Notes: a model not told the origin generated them from the letters alone. Counted from the first letter of the stretch, positions 30,217 to 32,839 are shown. The stretch is 56,319 nt of DNA from a bacterium (GCA_043800755.1 JAZDMQ010000076.1:1-56319), one strand, 5' to 3'. Translations and numbers: made by a program.

Positions 30217-31290
30217 TCAAGGGATTTCGACCTTCACTTCCTCAGAGAGTCCACTCTCATTGCGTTGGGGGGAGGAATCCACGGCGGAGACTGCGTAATA
30301 GAGGATGGTAGCGGGGGGAATGTTCTTGTCCACAAAGGTCACCTTGGTGGTGGGCACGAGATTGAGGCGGATATAGCCCACCCCTGGATAGAGGCTCCGG
30401 TAGACGAAATAGCCTGCCAGGTCCGCCTCGGGATTGGCCTCCCAGGCCAGCCGAACCTCCTTTCCTGCAAGGGCTGCGCTCAGGTTTCGGGGCCGCGAAG
30501 GGGGAGTCGTGTCGCTGGGGATCGCCACCGCCTCGTTGGATTCCAGGCTTTCATGGCCGGAAGGAAGCTCGGGATCAATCGCCCTGACGGTATAGTAATA
30601 GCTCACCTCGTTGGCCAGCCCGGTGTCGATGAAACTCCGCCCCTCAATCGGCTGGGTGTTGATCGGCCTTGAATCGTAGGACTGGGGGGCTTTTCCTCGA
30701 TAAAGGTTGTAGAGGGGGGGCGAGGTAAGCTCCTTCCCGTCTGCCCTGAATCTGGGGGCCTCCCAGGAGAGGAAGACGGTCTGATCGCCCCCGATCGCCT
30801 TCAGGAAGGAGGGGGGGTTGGGGCCGGGATCGATGCGGACCATGACCTCCTTGGAGGGAGGACCCGGTCCCTGGCCAAAATTGATCGCCCGAAGGTGATA
30901 GGCATATTGCTGATCGTAACTCAACCCCCTTCCTTCCCCATCATCGACAAATTCATAGGAATCGCCACTGACCTTTGCGTTCTCTGGCAGATTGGCCTTC
31001 ACCTTTGCGATCAGGGTCGCCGGCAAGGCAGCCCCCTCTTGCTTCACCTCCCGTCGATAGATCTCGAACTCCATGATCTCCCGGGCGGGTTTTCCCTTCA
31101 GGCTCTTGGCAGGGCGGGACCATGACAGATAAGCCCGGTTATCCCGGCTGACCGCCGTCACCTGGCTCACTGCCGAAGGAGTCGTCAACTCAGGCACCAC
31201 CGGGGGGGCCTTCCGGCCACAGGAGGAGACAAAAAGAGTCGCCCCCAGGAGAAGGAGGTTCAGGCCGAGGATGAAATATCGGTTGCCCAT
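30217..31290 (-). CDS. Lipoprotein with LptM/LppL-like N-terminal motif and three fibronectin type III domains
   Basis: Signal peptide ending VSS-C24, then CGRKAPPVVP; three Fn3 repeats (LSW..Y/F.IYR..F.D..Y.V.A). Confidence 0.8.
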   Translation of the reverse strand: MGNRYFILGLNLLLLGATLFVSSCGRKAPPVVPELTTPSAVSQVTAVSRDNRAYLSWSRPAKSLKGKPAREIMEFEIYRREVKQEGAALPATLIAKVKANLPENAKVSGDSYEFVDDGEGRGLSYDQQYAYHLRAINFGQGPGPPSKEVMVRIDPGPNPPSFLKAIGGDQTVFLSWEAPRFRADGKELTSPPLYNLYRGKAPQSYDSRPINTQPIEGRSFIDTGLANEVSYYYTVRAIDPELPSGHESLESNEAVAIPSDTTPPSRPRNLSAALAGKEVRLAWEANPEADLAGYFVYRSLYPGVGYIRLNLVPTTKVTFVDKNIPPATILYYAVSAVDSSPQRNESGLSEEVKVEIP

Positions 31291-31340
31291 AGGGGATTGA
31301 AAAGAAAAGGAAGAGGTCAACTCTTTGTCTTCCCTTTGAC

Positions 31341-31449
31341 CGGGGTGTGTCCCGCAATCCCCGCCCGGTGGGCGGGGTCAAGGGGCACAATACAAATTGA
31401 TATGTACTTCATTTCCGGGAAGCCCCGCCCGGTGGGCGAGGAGCTTCAC
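31341..31449 (+). mobile_element. Candidate non-autonomous IS200/IS605-type miniature element (MITE/PATE)
   Basis: Identical 16-mer CCCCGCCCGGTGGGCG at 31359-31374 and 31423-31438, each the core of a hairpin. Right copy has GAAG at its foot and TCAC at 31446-31449. Left copy has CAAT at its foot and TTGAC ending at 31340. No transposase ORF. Confidence 0.6.
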
Positions 31450-32839
31450 CTGGCCCGGGGCGATTCAGCCTTCTTCTCGCTGCCTTGAGTGCGGCCTCCA
31501 CCCTCTCCCCTGAGGTGCCGCCGGAGGACCGTCGGCGATTGACACAGGCCTCCAGGGAGATGAACTGAAAGACCTCTGGGCCGAAGAGGGGGGAGAAGGC
31601 CTTGAACTCCTCCAGGCTGAGATCCTCGATCTTCTCCTTCCCCTTCTGCAGGCAATAGCGGACAATCCTGCCCACCATCTCGTGGGCGGACCGAAAGGCC
31701 AGACCCTTCCCCGCCAGGTAATCGGCCAGATCGGTGGCATTGAGAAATCCCTGCTCCGCAGCTTGCCGCATTCGTTCTCTATGGACTTTCATTTGCGGAA
31801 GCATCAGGGAGAGGATCTGCAGGCAGGCCTTGGCCGTATCCACGGCATCGAAGAGGGGCTCCTTATCCTCCTGCAGATCCCGATTGTAGCTCAGAGGCAG
31901 ACCCTTCATGGTAGCCAACAAGGAGAAGAGGCTGCCGAAGACGCGACCCGATTTCCCCCTCACCAGCTCGGCCACATCGGGGTTCTTTTTCTGCGGCATC
32001 ATGCTCGATCCGGTGGCAAAGGCATCGGGAAGATCGAGGAAGCCGAACTCCGCCGTAGACCAGAGGATGATCTCCTCGCAGAGGCGGGAGAGGTGCATCA
32101 TCAAGATCGAGGCGGCGCCCAGAAACTCCAGGGAGAAATCGCGATCCGAGACTGCATCCAGGCTATTCTCCGCAACCTGGGCAAAGCCCAGGAGCTGGGC
32201 GACATAATCCGAATCGATGGGGAAGCTGGTCCCGGCCAGGGCCCCGGCCCCGAGGGGCAAGACATTCCCCCTTTGTCGGCAGTCGCCAAGGCGTCCCAAG
32301 TCCCGGTCCAACATCTCAAAATAGGCGAGGAGGTGATGGGCCAGGAGGATGGGCTGGGCCCGTTGGGTGTGGGTGTAGCCAGGGAGGATCGTCCTCAGGT
32401 TATCCTCTGCCAACTCCAAGAGGGCCGACTGCAGAGAGCGAATTAAGAGGCACAGGGCATCGATCTGCTCTCGAAGGTAGAGGCGGATGTCCAGGGCCAC
32501 CTGATCATTGCGGGAGCGGCCGGTATGGAGCTTGCCTCCCACCTCCCCCACCTTTTCGATCAGCAGGGCCTCGATGTTCATATGGACATCCTCTAACGCC
32601 GGATCAAAGGTCACCTTTCCGGCCTCGATCTCCCCTGCGATCTCCCGCAACCCGGCCACGATCTCCCTGGCCTCTGTCGGGCTGATGATCCCGGCCTTCC
32701 CCAACATCCGGGCATGGGCAATGCTGCCCTGAATATCGTATTTCGCCAGGCGGCCATCAAAAGAGACCGACTCGGTAAAGGCCTCGACCGACTGATGGGT
32801 CTTCTCCTTGAATCTCCCTCCCCACGGCTTCTTCTTCAT
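31409..32839 (-). CDS. argH: Argininosuccinate lyase
   Basis: PWGGRF, LHTGRSRNDQ, PGYTHTQRAQP, GSSMMPQKKNPD, SYNRDLQEDKE; atypical Pro/Gly tail. Confidence 0.98.
   Translation of the reverse strand: MKKKPWGGRFKEKTHQSVEAFTESVSFDGRLAKYDIQGSIAHARMLGKAGIISPTEAREIVAGLREIAGEIEAGKVTFDPALEDVHMNIEALLIEKVGEVGGKLHTGRSRNDQVALDIRLYLREQIDALCLLIRSLQSALLELAEDNLRTILPGYTHTQRAQPILLAHHLLAYFEMLDRDLGRLGDCRQRGNVLPLGAGALAGTSFPIDSDYVAQLLGFAQVAENSLDAVSDRDFSLEFLGAASILMMHLSRLCEEIILWSTAEFGFLDLPDAFATGSSMMPQKKNPDVAELVRGKSGRVFGSLFSLLATMKGLPLSYNRDLQEDKEPLFDAVDTAKACLQILSLMLPQMKVHRERMRQAAEQGFLNATDLADYLAGKGLAFRSAHEMVGRIVRYCLQKGKEKIEDLSLEEFKAFSPLFGPEVFQFISLEACVNRRRSSGGTSGERVEAALKAARRRLNRPGPGEAPRPPGGASRK

What the first reader, a model, noticed from the sequence alone, without database searches (positions are those of the whole stretch)
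31336..31449. 109-bp non-coding element with IS200/IS605-type paired ends (candidate MITE/PATE)
Seen: an exact 16-bp direct repeat 64 bp apart, each forming a CCCCGCCC/GGGCG(G/A)GG hairpin, around an AT-rich core. Known: IS200/IS605 ends are same-strand hairpins whose 4-nt foot guide pairs with the cleavage tetranucleotide (IS608: AAAG-TTAC, GAAT-TCAA; pairs 1:2, 2:1, 4:4). Here the right-end GAAG predicts TCAC, and TCAC is present (3/3 pairs). The left-end CAAT at +15..+18 faces TGAC (2/3 pairs). Such right ends also form the 3' end of TnpB omegaRNAs. Inference: a transposase-free mini-element mobilised in trans, possibly leaving a small RNA whose 3' flank is antisense to argH. It is the only mobile-element signature I found in this window.
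Basis: partly seen in the sequence, partly recalled or inferred. Interest (0 to 1): 0.7.

Follow-up and report, generated by a model that had tools for sequence, protein, structure and literature searches.

The report
High-copy IS200/IS605-type mini-transposon in argH
The two GC-rich hairpins at the 3' end of argH are one copy of a roughly 110-nt, gene-less mobile element of the IS200/IS605 (single-strand 'peel-and-paste') kind that occurs in huge numbers in sediment, wetland and lake bacteria; here it supplies the last 12 codons and the stop codon of argH.

Summary
An exact 16-nt repeat lies at 31359-31374 and 31423-31438, and each copy forms a hairpin. It is not a local oddity: 31336-31449 matches a dispersed repeat family end to end (family covariance model, 101.8 bits). 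More than 120 copies with unrelated flanks were fetched from metagenome contigs. In sediment and lake metagenomes the summed contig word-depth rises from about 5-10x in the flanks to 2,000-12,000x over the element.

The family has no terminal inverted repeats and no target-site duplication. It has a conserved left-flank motif T-T-G-R and a conserved right terminus GAGCTTCAC. Its same-strand hairpins show compensatory changes. One empty site (L170) gives the junction TTGA|AAAG.

The right end, GGGAAG-hairpin-AGC(T)TCAC, is nearly the same as the right end of annotated enterobacterial IS200/IS605 elements that carry tnpA (Y1_Tnp) and tnpB. The left end is built alike.

No transposase was found in the window or in 1.2 Mb of fetched loci. 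The guide/cleavage-site pairing could not be confirmed by covariation.

This is a new member of a known kind, apparently undescribed and very abundant. The small-RNA idea is untested and unlikely. The window copy is fixed in all seven metagenomes that hold the locus.

The parts
31336..31339 (+). TTGA: conserved left-flank target motif (family T-T-G-R). It stays outside the element.
   Evidence: Position profile of 94 copies: T 62%, T 90%, G 97%, A/G 55/45%. The empty site L170 reads ...CCTTGA|AAAGCGG.
31340..31449 (+). The element itself (110 nt; CCGG...GAGCTTCAC). The putative top (active) strand is the window + strand.
   Evidence: R1 hit 31336-31449, 101.8 bits. Contig pile-up borders. 84% identical to the family consensus, equal to the family median.
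31347..31388 (+). Left-end compound hairpin. Outer stem GTGTCCC (31347-53) / GGGGCAC (31382-88) encloses CAAT (31355-58) and hairpin 1 (31359-77); TCAA follows at 31378-81.
   Evidence: ssDNA fold. The outer stem is paired in 97.5% of cells across 80 copies.
31359..31377 (+). Hairpin 1: CCCCGCCC-GGT-GGGCGGGG (first copy of the 16-nt repeat).
   Evidence: The family has variants A, B and C of this hairpin.
31395..31414 (+). Central A/T-rich hairpin, AATTGA...TCATTT. Its 3' arm holds the argH stop codon (TCA on + = TGA on -, 31409-31411).
   Evidence: CM alignment. This pair covaries in the family: UA 20 / GC 11.
31415..31422 (+). CCGG + GAAG. GAAG is the candidate right guide tetranucleotide and is also the 5' arm of the outer stem GAAGC/GCTTC.
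   Evidence: Present in every copy because the search pattern required it. The same GGGAAG precedes the right-end hairpin in L207 and L210.
31423..31441 (+). Hairpin 2 (right-end palindrome): CCCCGCCC-GGT-GGGCGAGG.
   Evidence: Compensatory pair types in the family: CG 52 / GC 17 / UA 4.
31442..31449 (+). AGCTTCAC: linker and right terminus (TCAC, the transposon-encoded end motif).
   Evidence: Profile G-A-G-C-T-T-C-A(90%)-C(67%), then a flank that starts with A/T in 95% of copies. Enterobacterial IS right ends read AGCAGTCAC|.
31409..32839 (-). argH (argininosuccinate lyase, 476 aa). Its last 12 codons and its stop codon come from the element.
   Evidence: Pfam Lyase_1 + ASL_C2. Homologues stop aligning at residue ~459. 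Translation.
30217..31320 (-). Downstream lipoprotein gene (TTG start at 31318-31320; FN3-like; no Pfam hit), followed by lysA and dapF.

Best explanation
Window 31340-31449 is one copy of a protein-less derivative of an IS200/IS605-family insertion sequence, that is, a palindrome-associated transposable element (PATE), or MITE in the loose sense.

Shown: it belongs to a dispersed family of about 110 nt with sharp borders. The family has a conserved left-flank motif TTGR and a conserved right terminus GAGCTTCAC. It has no terminal inverted repeats and no target-site duplication. It has hairpins on one strand that are kept by compensatory changes. Its right end, and the build of its left end, match those of IS elements that encode a Y1 (HUH) TnpA and TnpB.

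Inferred: a TnpA made elsewhere in the genome binds the two subterminal hairpins on the + strand when that strand is single-stranded. It cuts after TTGR on the left and after TCAC on the right, releases a single-stranded circle, and pastes it 3' of another TTGR motif ('peel and paste'). GAAG, 5' of hairpin 2, would position TCAC as GAAT positions TCAA in IS608.

The window copy landed at the 3' end of argH, antisense to it. The argH reading frame now runs 38 nt into the element and stops in its central hairpin. The copy is of average age (84% identical to the consensus). It is present in every strain variant seen, so it is probably no longer moving.
For: Multi-copy: 126-164 contigs per run pile up on 31340-31451 at 2,000-3,900x against 7-13x in the flanks. 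Around another copy the figures are 1,800-12,000x against 4-9x. The metagenome scan hit its 120-locus limit. R1 finds 107 copies in 487 kb.

Borders and target: information profile. No TSD at any offset or length; the largest excess over control is 0.06. Empty site L170 reads TTGA|AAAG, against sites filled in L198, L128 and L176.

Structure: 87.5% of cells are paired. Cells changed on both sides number 45, against 23 +/- 3.5 in shuffles (0/500), and the observed structure exceeds all slid controls. G-T pairs outnumber A-C pairs on the + strand in the arms not fixed by the search pattern (12:4 and 19:2). The + strand folds better in 87 of 119 copies.

Homology of ends: the only plasmid hits of the consensus lie at the 3' end of tnpB genes. 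L207 has Y1_Tnp tnpA and OrfB_IS605 tnpB. Its right end is GGGAAG-CCCCGCCC-TTTA-GGGCGGGG-AGCAGTCAC. Similarity to a Klebsiella element in a different context ends exactly after TCAC. R1 hits L207 at 2446-2535, ending at that C.

IS608 geometry and guide rule are taken from PMC3201880. PATEs without genes are an accepted class (bioRxiv 10.1101/2023.03.14.532601).

There is no orientation bias relative to neighbouring genes: 51/43 upstream and 48/44 downstream.
Against: No tnpA or tnpB was found in the 56-kb window or in about 1.2 Mb of fetched loci, so the mobilising enzyme is unidentified.

The left 'guide' does not covary with the target. Hairpin-1 variants B and C (35 of 106 copies) lack CAAG but keep TGRC. 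N11 against target position 1 shows no excess of Watson-Crick pairs. GAAG can equally be read as the plain stem GAAGC/GCTTC.

Among the enterobacterial right ends, GAAG, GAAT and GAAA all go with TCAC, so the fourth pair of the IS608 rule is not general.

The central hairpin also covaries, which transposition alone does not require.

No empty allele was seen for the window copy or for two consensus-identical copies.

The match to the enterobacterial right end is short (28-29 nt, E 0.3 on its own).
Confidence: 0.75

Rival explanations
1. It is a REP/BIME-type system. The hairpins are repetitive extragenic palindromes spread and maintained by a single-copy domesticated Y1 transposase (RAYT / TnpA-REP), not by an insertion sequence. 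The 110-nt unit would be a fixed cluster of such palindromes.
For: In lake metagenomes X55 and X57 the last 36-40 nt alone (GAAG-hairpin-AGCTTCAC) is 25-70 times more abundant than the rest of the element. It lies mid-contig in long contigs of one abundant organism. No IS-borne transposase was found. REPs resemble IS200/IS605 subterminal hairpins (PMC3333891, abstract seen).
Against: The unit is a constant composite with two different ends, a conserved core and sharp borders. The hairpins are in direct orientation, not inverted as in BIMEs/REPINs. There is no GTAG-type head. The right terminus equals that of tnpB-bearing IS elements, down to TCAC. No RAYT-like Y1 protein was seen in the fetched DNA.
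Confidence: 0.08
2. It is a structured RNA gene family that happens to be mobile. The whole three-hairpin fold would be selected as RNA, for instance as a stand-alone guide-RNA scaffold used in trans by a TnpB nuclease (as many PATEs are said to carry omega RNAs) or as a regulatory RNA, with the flank 3' of TCAC as guide.
For: All hairpins covary, including the central one. The element is present in metatranscriptome contigs from soil, wetland, peat, groundwater and sediment. Its right end equals the 3' end of tnpB/omega-RNA regions. PATEs 'often encode omega RNAs'.
Against: RNA contigs run on into unlike flanks on both sides, so there is no sign of a discrete RNA. Only about 35 nt resemble the TnpB element; R1 scores just 18 bits on L207. 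There is no Rfam match. Orientation relative to genes is random. Neither promoter-like nor terminator-like sites were found in the window copy.
Confidence: 0.08
3. It is a non-autonomous element of another family that makes no target duplication (IS91 rolling-circle, IS110/IS1111), or it is a retro-mobile element.
For: There is no TSD and no TIR. A few copies are truncated at the 5' end with intact 3' ends: L114, L156, L165, L175.
Against: End sequences match IS200/IS605 ends specifically. The target and terminus motifs (TTGR / TCAC) are of the IS608 / ISDra2 type. No reverse transcriptase or IS91/IS110 gene was noticed, though none of these was searched for.
Confidence: 0.04
4. It is a local feature only: a tandem duplication of a terminator or mRNA-stabiliser hairpin downstream of argH, or a two-repeat CRISPR-like mini-array (28-nt repeat + 36-nt spacer = 64).
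For: The 64-nt period and 28-nt repeat fit CRISPR dimensions. The position is at a gene's 3' end.
Against: The 'spacer' is conserved in more than 120 copies elsewhere. There is no T-run after either hairpin on either strand and no terminator call. Relatives at 73-80% ArgH identity lack it.
Confidence: 0.01

Closest known systems
PATEs (palindrome-associated transposable elements): gene-less derivatives of IS200/IS605 elements, described in Haloquadratum (PMC3119063) and Geobacillus stearothermophilus (bioRxiv 10.1101/2023.03.14.532601)
   Same: About 100-nt scale. Only the left and right ends of an IS200/IS605 element with subterminal hairpins on one strand. No genes, no TIR, no TSD. A conserved motif next to the left end and a conserved motif at the right end. 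Many copies, presumably moved in trans.
   Different: The sequence family appears undescribed: there was no Rfam hit, and no literature search on its sequence motifs was made. Copy numbers and environmental spread are very large. Hosts include distantly related uncultured bacteria. It has a third, central covarying hairpin and nested extra palindromes. The cognate tnpA was not found.
Enterobacterial tnpA-tnpB IS200/IS605 element on Raoultella ornithinolytica plasmid pNUITM-VR1_1 (NZ_AP025010.1 304.1-305.9 kb; L207) and related TnpB-only elements in Klebsiella (L209), E. coli (InsQ/TnpB, L208) and a phage contig (L210)
   Same: Right end: GGGAAG / 8-bp CCCCGCCC stem / AG / ...TCAC|, in the same orientation as tnpB. 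Left end: TGCCCCG-NAAR-[CCC(T)CGCCC hairpin]-..AA-GGGG.. The variant GGGCGTGG arm occurs in both.
   Different: Those elements are 1.2-1.8 kb and encode proteins. The linker is AGCAGTCAC (9 nt) rather than AGCTTCAC (8 nt). The left-flank motif looks like TTAAC rather than TTGR (its boundary was not determined). The hosts are Enterobacteriaceae.
IS608 of Helicobacter pylori (mechanistic reference; PMC3201880)
   Same: A target tetranucleotide kept on the left (TTAC vs TTGR). A right terminus TCAA vs TCAC. A guide 5' of the right hairpin, GAAT vs GAAG, with the fourth position changing together with the terminus (T:A to G:C). A-G directly 3' of the right hairpin foot in both. Cleavage-site-to-hairpin distances of 19 and 10 nt against about 18-19 and 8 nt.
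   Different: No sequence homology was tested beyond these motifs. The left-end guide could not be fixed in one register. The left hairpin is compound (outer and inner stems).
REP/BIME elements with RAYT (TnpA-REP) (PMC3333891, PMC8266576)
   Same: High-copy GC-rich extragenic palindromes related to IS200/IS605 ends. A solo version of the right-end hairpin is very abundant in some lake bacteria.
   Different: The family unit is a fixed asymmetric composite with direct-orientation hairpins, not single palindromes or inverted pairs. There is no GTAG head.

Membership tests
IS200/IS605-derived non-autonomous element (PATE) | Subterminal imperfect palindromes at both ends on the same strand; no terminal inverted repeats | tested here: met
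   Profile and alignment of 80-122 copies. Paired cells 87.5% with compensatory changes. ssDNA fold of the window copy. The reverse complement of the right end does not match the left terminus (sequence inspection of the consensus).
IS200/IS605-derived non-autonomous element (PATE) | No target-site duplication | tested here: met
   All combinations of boundary offset and k = 2-6 on 99 copies give an excess over shuffled flanks of at most 0.06. Empty site against filled sites shows a clean insertion.
IS200/IS605-derived non-autonomous element (PATE) | Insertion 3' of a short conserved motif that remains in the left flank (TAM), and a conserved motif at the right terminus (TEM) | tested here: met
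   Left: t-T-T-G-R. Right...GCTTCA-C, then a flank starting with A/T. L170 empty site reads TTGA|AAAG. The boundary rests on one empty site, so it is uncertain by 1 nt.
IS200/IS605-derived non-autonomous element (PATE) | Cleavage sites recognised by 4-nt guides 5' of the hairpin feet (IS608 rule, PMC3201880) | tested here: inconclusive
   Right: GAAG/TCAC fits 3/3 in 71 of 106 copies, but GAAG was fixed by the search pattern and also pairs with CTTC as a stem. Left: CAAG/TGAC fits 3/3 in 37 of 60 variant-A copies, but variants B and C lack it, and the empty site shifts the cleavage site to TTGR. No covariation.
IS200/IS605-derived non-autonomous element (PATE) | Ends homologous to those of an element encoding a Y1 (HUH) TnpA | tested here: met
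   The right end is near-identical in motif order to L207 (Y1_Tnp 132.8 bits; OrfB_IS605). The left end has the same build. Caveat: the shared stretch is short, and the IS is from a different phylum.
IS200/IS605-derived non-autonomous element (PATE) | A cognate tnpA in the same genome able to act in trans | tested here: inconclusive
   None in the window or in 1.23 Mb of loci (phmmer with the L207 TnpA and TnpB and a recalled IS200 probe).
IS200/IS605-derived non-autonomous element (PATE) | Top strand biased to the lagging-strand template | not testable with these tools
   Contigs are short and no replication origin is known. Only orientation relative to genes was tested, and it is unbiased.
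REP/BIME with RAYT | 20-40-nt palindromic units with a conserved 5' tetranucleotide head, often in inverted pairs, linked to a single-copy RAYT gene | tested here: not met
   The unit is a fixed 110-nt composite. The hairpins are direct, not inverted. No RAYT-like Y1 ORF was found in the fetched DNA. Solo right-end hairpins in another organism remain unexplained.
CRISPR array | Identical repeats separated by unique spacers | tested here: not met
   The 36-nt 'spacer' is conserved across copies. No CRISPR repeat family reaches Rfam's threshold.
TnpB omega RNA | A scaffold of 100 nt or more ending at the right end, next to or overlapping tnpB, with a defined transcript | tested here: inconclusive
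   Only the last ~35 nt resemble a tnpB 3' region. No tnpB nearby. RNA contigs read through both borders. Strand and ends of the RNA are not obtainable from contigs.

The most novel reading that the evidence does not exclude
The family is more than a selfish hitch-hiker. Its whole three-hairpin fold, closed by the invariant CCGG...CCGG, would be selected as a single-stranded nucleic acid with a function of its own. One example is an orphan guide-RNA scaffold that lets a TnpB-type nuclease encoded elsewhere target the sequence 3' of each of hundreds of insertion sites. Another is a module that rebuilds a -35-like TTCACA next to genes. The same right-end hairpin would also have become a REP-like solo repeat in other bacteria, linking IS ends, PATEs and REPs in one living lineage spread across phyla.
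Probability: 0.12. Interest if true: 0.7.

Novelty: new member of a known kind. Interest (0 to 1): 0.42.

Why it matters
It shows that a tool-less reading of raw sequence correctly picked out a single-strand transposon relic from two hairpins.

It also defines, with consensus, borders, target motif and a covariance model, an apparently undescribed PATE family. That family is among the most repeated sequences in several freshwater-sediment, wetland and lake metagenomes, where it breaks assemblies: many contigs end in it.

For genome annotation it explains why this ArgH has a non-homologous 12-residue tail and a borrowed stop codon.

For the biology of IS200/IS605 and TnpB it offers a natural series: full IS, then PATE, then possibly solo REP-like hairpin, all with one recognisable right end. 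In that series trans-mobilisation, target choice (TTGR) and any RNA role could be tested.

Tried and rejected
(1) Local duplication, terminator or mRNA-stabiliser hairpins: rejected by the family data and by the lack of a T-run.

(2) CRISPR mini-array (28 + 36 = 64): rejected because the spacer is conserved.

(3) Known RNA family: no Rfam match at gathering or at E <= 10 on the window copy, on eight consensus-like loci, or on the L207 IS.

(4) Empty allele of the window copy: contigs of eight metagenomes were laid, seven of which covered the locus. All seven carry the element and show no joints. Relatives at 73-80% ArgH identity (L082-L085) lack it, but the intergenic DNA cannot be aligned, so they are not true empty sites.

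(5) Empty alleles of two consensus-identical copies (L143, L151): none.

(6) Transposase hunt: phmmer of a recalled IS200 TnpA, then of the real L207 TnpA and TnpB, against all six-frame ORFs of at least 70 aa from the window and 207 loci found nothing. Scans of viral contigs for the core, left end and right end gave only one truncated tnpB 3' end with a right end.

(7) Covariation of guide and target: negative.

(8) Strand inference from G-T versus A-C. The raw count for hairpin 2 pointed the wrong way, until I saw that the search pattern had fixed its 5' arm, which is an ascertainment bias. Only the unconstrained arms were used.

(9) My crude ORF-overlap statistic (47 of 122 copies 'inside ORFs') is unreliable because spurious ORFs run through the GC-rich element, so it was not used.

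(10) The apparent orthology of L120 and L125 and the L160/L196 'empty site' are due to other repeats, not to true empty sites.

(11) Host taxonomy: only coarse labels were obtained. The window ArgH is nearest to NC10 / Methylomirabilales MAGs. L129-type hosts form an unnamed clade, with one member labelled 'Proteobacteria bacterium'.

Full report
**1. The observation**

On the + strand, CCCCGCCCGGTGGGCG occurs exactly at 31359-31374 and 31423-31438, and nowhere else in the 56-kb window. The repeat extends to 28 nt (86% identity). Each copy is an 8-bp GC hairpin with a GGT loop; the second has one C-A mismatch. The core between them is A/T-rich. TTGAC precedes the unit and TCAC ends it. The description is therefore correct.

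**2. Setting**

All genes here are on the minus strand, in the order argD-argF-argG-argH-lipoprotein-lysA-dapF.

- The argH ORF (31409-32839, 476 aa; Lyase_1 + ASL_C2) does not stop where its homologues do. Homologues stop aligning at about residue 459.
- The ORF continues through hairpin 2 and ends at a TGA at 31409-31411.
- So 38 nt of the 'non-coding' element encode the tail (G)EAPRPPGGASRK*.
- Hairpin 1 lies in the gap before the lipoprotein gene.
- Neither hairpin is followed by a T-run on either strand, and no terminator or promoter pattern is found.

**3. It is a dispersed repeat**

Logan contigs of four sediment metagenomes that hold this locus were laid on 31200-31600. The flanks stand at 7-13x. 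Positions 31340-31451 reach 2,000-3,900x, from 126-164 mostly short contigs per run that are 80-95% alike. Those contigs lose all resemblance at 31336/31347 and at 31448/31449.

A pattern taken from the conserved blocks (GGGGCACAAT N8-30 CCGGGAAGCCCCG) hit the 120-locus limit in JGI metagenome contigs. All copies have unrelated flanks.

The consensus is TTGACCGGCAAGTGCCCCGCAAGCCCCGCCTTGTAGGCGGGGTCAAGGGGCACAATATAAATGAGATTTCCTTTCCGGGAAGCCCCGCCCTGTGGGCGGGGAGCTTCAC.

- Information content rises from zero at t-T-T-G-R-C-C-G-G. It falls to zero after G-A-G-C-T-T-C-A-C, and the first flank base is A/T in 95% of copies.
- A covariance model built from 80 copies (R1) scores the window copy at 101.8 bits over exactly 31336-31449. 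It finds no second copy in the window.
- R1 finds 107 copies in 487 kb of the fetched loci. That is about one extra copy per 60-70 kb beyond the copy that brought each locus in.
- The window copy is 84% identical to the consensus, which is the family median.
- Seven copies at different loci are at least 97% identical to the consensus, a sign of recent spread.
- Around one of them, in lake metagenomes, depth goes from 4-9x to 1,800-12,000x.
- Loci that bear the element have 38-57% G+C (median 49%); the window has 59%.
- Window proteins are only 25-49% identical to proteins of those loci.
- The window's ArgH is nearest to NC10 / Methylomirabilales MAG proteins. The MutS2 of one typical host belongs to an unnamed clade. 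The family therefore spans distant lineages.

**4. Anatomy and structure**

On the + strand the element folds into three parts:

- a compound left hairpin, with outer stem GTGCCCC/GGGGCAC around hairpin 1;
- a central A/T hairpin;
- a long right hairpin, with GAAGC/GCTTC around hairpin 2.

Across 80 copies 87.5% of cells are paired. Cells changed on both sides number 45, against 23 +/- 3.5 in column shuffles (0 of 500 reach the observed value). Every slid control is far lower. Examples are CG 52 / GC 17 / UA 4 in hairpin 2 and UA 20 / GC 11 in the central hairpin.

Which strand is the functional one was tested as follows:

- In arms not constrained by my search pattern, G-T pairs outnumber A-C pairs on the + strand (12:4 and 19:2). 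The + strand is the more stable one in 87 of 119 copies.
- The opposite count for hairpin 2 is an artefact of the pattern having fixed its 5' arm.
- So the functional single strand is most likely the window + strand, which is antisense to argH.

Hairpin 1 exists in three variants: A 60 copies, B 29, C 6. Longer copies (125-151 nt) carry nested small palindromes.

**5. What kind of mobile element**

- There are no terminal inverted repeats.
- There is no target-site duplication at any boundary offset or length.
- Orientation relative to neighbouring genes is random. This argues against a terminator or a leader element and for insertion in either direction.
- One site is informative about borders. 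L198, L128 and L176 carry the element at the same place in a conserved stretch, and L170 has that stretch without it...CCTCCGGAAACCTTGA|AAAGCGGATCATTAGAGAGAGGGG.
- This fits insertion of CCGG...TTCAC (the 110-nt class) between TTGR and A/T, with nothing duplicated or lost.
- In the window, removing 31340-31449 would put argH in frame with a TGA that overlaps the TTG start of the lipoprotein gene. Removing 109 nt gives no stop at all. This is a weak, independent hint for the same boundary (sequence reading).

**6. Link to IS200/IS605**

A blastn of the consensus against 72,556 plasmids gave nine short hits. Seven of them lie at the very 3' end of genes annotated as TnpB.

In Raoultella plasmid pNUITM-VR1_1 (L207) the unit is a tnpA (Y1_Tnp, 132.8 bits) plus tnpB (OrfB_IS605) element.

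- Its right end reads GAAGTGGGAAG-CCCCGCCC-TTTA-GGGCGGGG-AGCAGTCAC|. The family's right end reads CCGGGAAG-CCCCGCCC-TGT-GGGCGGGG-AGCTTCAC|.
- Similarity between L207 and a Klebsiella TnpB element in a different context ends exactly after that TCAC; with an E. coli InsQ/TnpB element it ends 3 nt further on.
- All of these, and a phage contig, share the same right-end motif ...GTCAC.
- R1 hits L207 at 2446-2535, ending at the same C.
- The left end of L207 (..TTAAC AAT TGCCCCG TAAA CCCTCGCCC..GGGCGGGG ATATAA GGGGAGC) has the same build as the family's left end.

Measured against IS608 (PMC3201880), the geometry is close:

- target kept on the left;
- right terminus TCAA against TCAC;
- right guide GAAT against GAAG, with the fourth position and the terminus changed together;
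- A-G directly 3' of the right hairpin foot in both.

Gene-less IS200/IS605 derivatives (PATEs) are an accepted class (PMC3119063).

**7. What remains unproven**

- No tnpA or tnpB is present in the window or in 1.23 Mb of fetched DNA.
- The guide/cleavage pairing is only a consensus-level fit. The right end fits 3/3 in 71 of 106 copies, but GAAG was fixed by the search pattern and can simply be a stem.
Variants B and C lack that tetranucleotide, and the empty site moves the cleavage site to TTGR.
- No covariation between candidate guides and target positions was found.
- The enterobacterial right ends pair GAAG, GAAT and GAAA with the same TCAC.
- The central hairpin's covariation is not explained by transposition.
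- Metatranscriptome contigs from several biomes contain the element, but they read through both borders into unlike flanks. There is thus no evidence for a discrete small RNA.
- Only about 35 nt resemble a TnpB 3' region.

**8. The window copy**

It is present in the 99% strain L081 and in all seven of the eight laid metagenomes whose contigs cover the locus, with no empty joint. Relatives at 73-80% ArgH identity lack it.

It carries changes in candidate functional positions: CAAG to CAAT, a T-G pair in the outer left stem, a C-A mismatch in hairpin 2, and a 5-nt insertion in the core. Uniquely among 106 copies, its two hairpins have been made identical over 16 nt. It is best seen as a fixed, probably inactive insertion.

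Its lasting effects are a new C-terminal tail and stop codon for ArgH, and two very stable hairpins in the argH-lipoprotein intercistronic RNA (-59.6 kcal/mol, z -3.1).

**9. Verdict**

The element is a new member of a known kind: an IS200/IS605-type PATE. The family itself seems undescribed and is remarkably abundant.

One open point is worth following. In some lake bacteria the right-end hairpin alone is 25-70 times more frequent than the whole element. This is either a second family with the same right end or a REP-like offshoot.

Noticed in passing
window 31359-31377 and 31423-31441: Only in this copy (and its 99% strain L081) are the two hairpins identical over 16 nt, both with a GGT loop. 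In 105 other copies the longest shared run is at most 10 nt. This looks like an intra-element conversion of one hairpin by the other.
   Followed up: yes
window 31317-31340 with 31450-31453: Removing 110 nt (31340-31449) puts argH in frame with the TGA of AGTTGACC, which overlaps the TTG start of the downstream lipoprotein gene (a TTGA stop/start overlap). Removing 109 nt leaves no stop before the next gene. In L081 the ATG at the position of window 31288-31290 is AGG, and the gene caller used the TTG.
   Followed up: partly
L118, L123, L179, L154, L197, L201, L203, L092, L104, L146, L180, L187; free-standing in L196 ~1005-1030: A second small palindrome, CCTGCCTRCCGGYAGGCAGG, sits nested in loops or next to hairpins of many family copies, and also alone in a flank. 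A further module, GTCCCGTCCTAACGGGAT, extends hairpin 2 in about 15 copies. These may be independent REP-like inserts or expansion segments.
   Followed up: no
flanks of L161, L182, L160, L196, L103, L131, L145, L156: Many insertion sites lie in short A/T-rich arrays of ATTTGA(A/C)ATTTGAA-type motifs, which themselves contain the TTGA target. The right terminus plus first flank base (TTCAC+A) resembles a -35 hexamer.
   Followed up: no
L128:1423-1530, L176:2069-2175, L198:9806-9915; empty site at L170 ~11619: The same site is filled with different hairpin-1 variants (A in L128 and L176, B in L198) and is empty in L170. This means either repeated independent insertion at one hot spot or exchange between copies.
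   Followed up: partly
runs X55, X57 (also X51, X54) laid on L151:4107-4146 and L143:4424-4459: The right-end unit alone (about 36-40 nt) is 25-70 times deeper than the rest of the element. It lies mid-contig in 3-13-kb contigs of one abundant lake organism (about 40-50 units per genome). Some units share an A/T-rich upstream consensus.
   Followed up: partly
P0002-P0010 (ArgH relatives), window 31409-31460: ArgH proteins of this clade have non-homologous, mostly basic C-terminal tails of 5-30 residues (466-490 aa against 458-461 aa elsewhere). The 3' end of argH seems to be a recurrent site of change.
   Followed up: partly
E. coli chromosomes (450 of 5,426 genomes) and Salmonella plasmids; query L207:808-847: Unannotated 35-40-nt matches (97-100%) to the left-end hairpin of the Raoultella IS200/IS605 element. 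These are solo IS-end or REP-like hairpins in enterobacteria.
   Followed up: no
L210:6440-6560 (IMG/VR contig, next to tail-fibre genes): A truncated tnpB 3' end with an intact right end (GGGAAG-CCCCGCCC-GACA-GGGCGGGG-AGCTGTCAC) in a phage contig. L208 (an E. coli phage-like plasmid) has a full InsQ/TnpB at a similar place beside a tail gene.
   Followed up: no
window 31340-31343 and 31415-31418: The invariant CCGG at the element's start and the invariant CCGG before GAAG are self-complementary and pair in the ssDNA fold. This would close the left and central hairpins into one domain.
   Followed up: no
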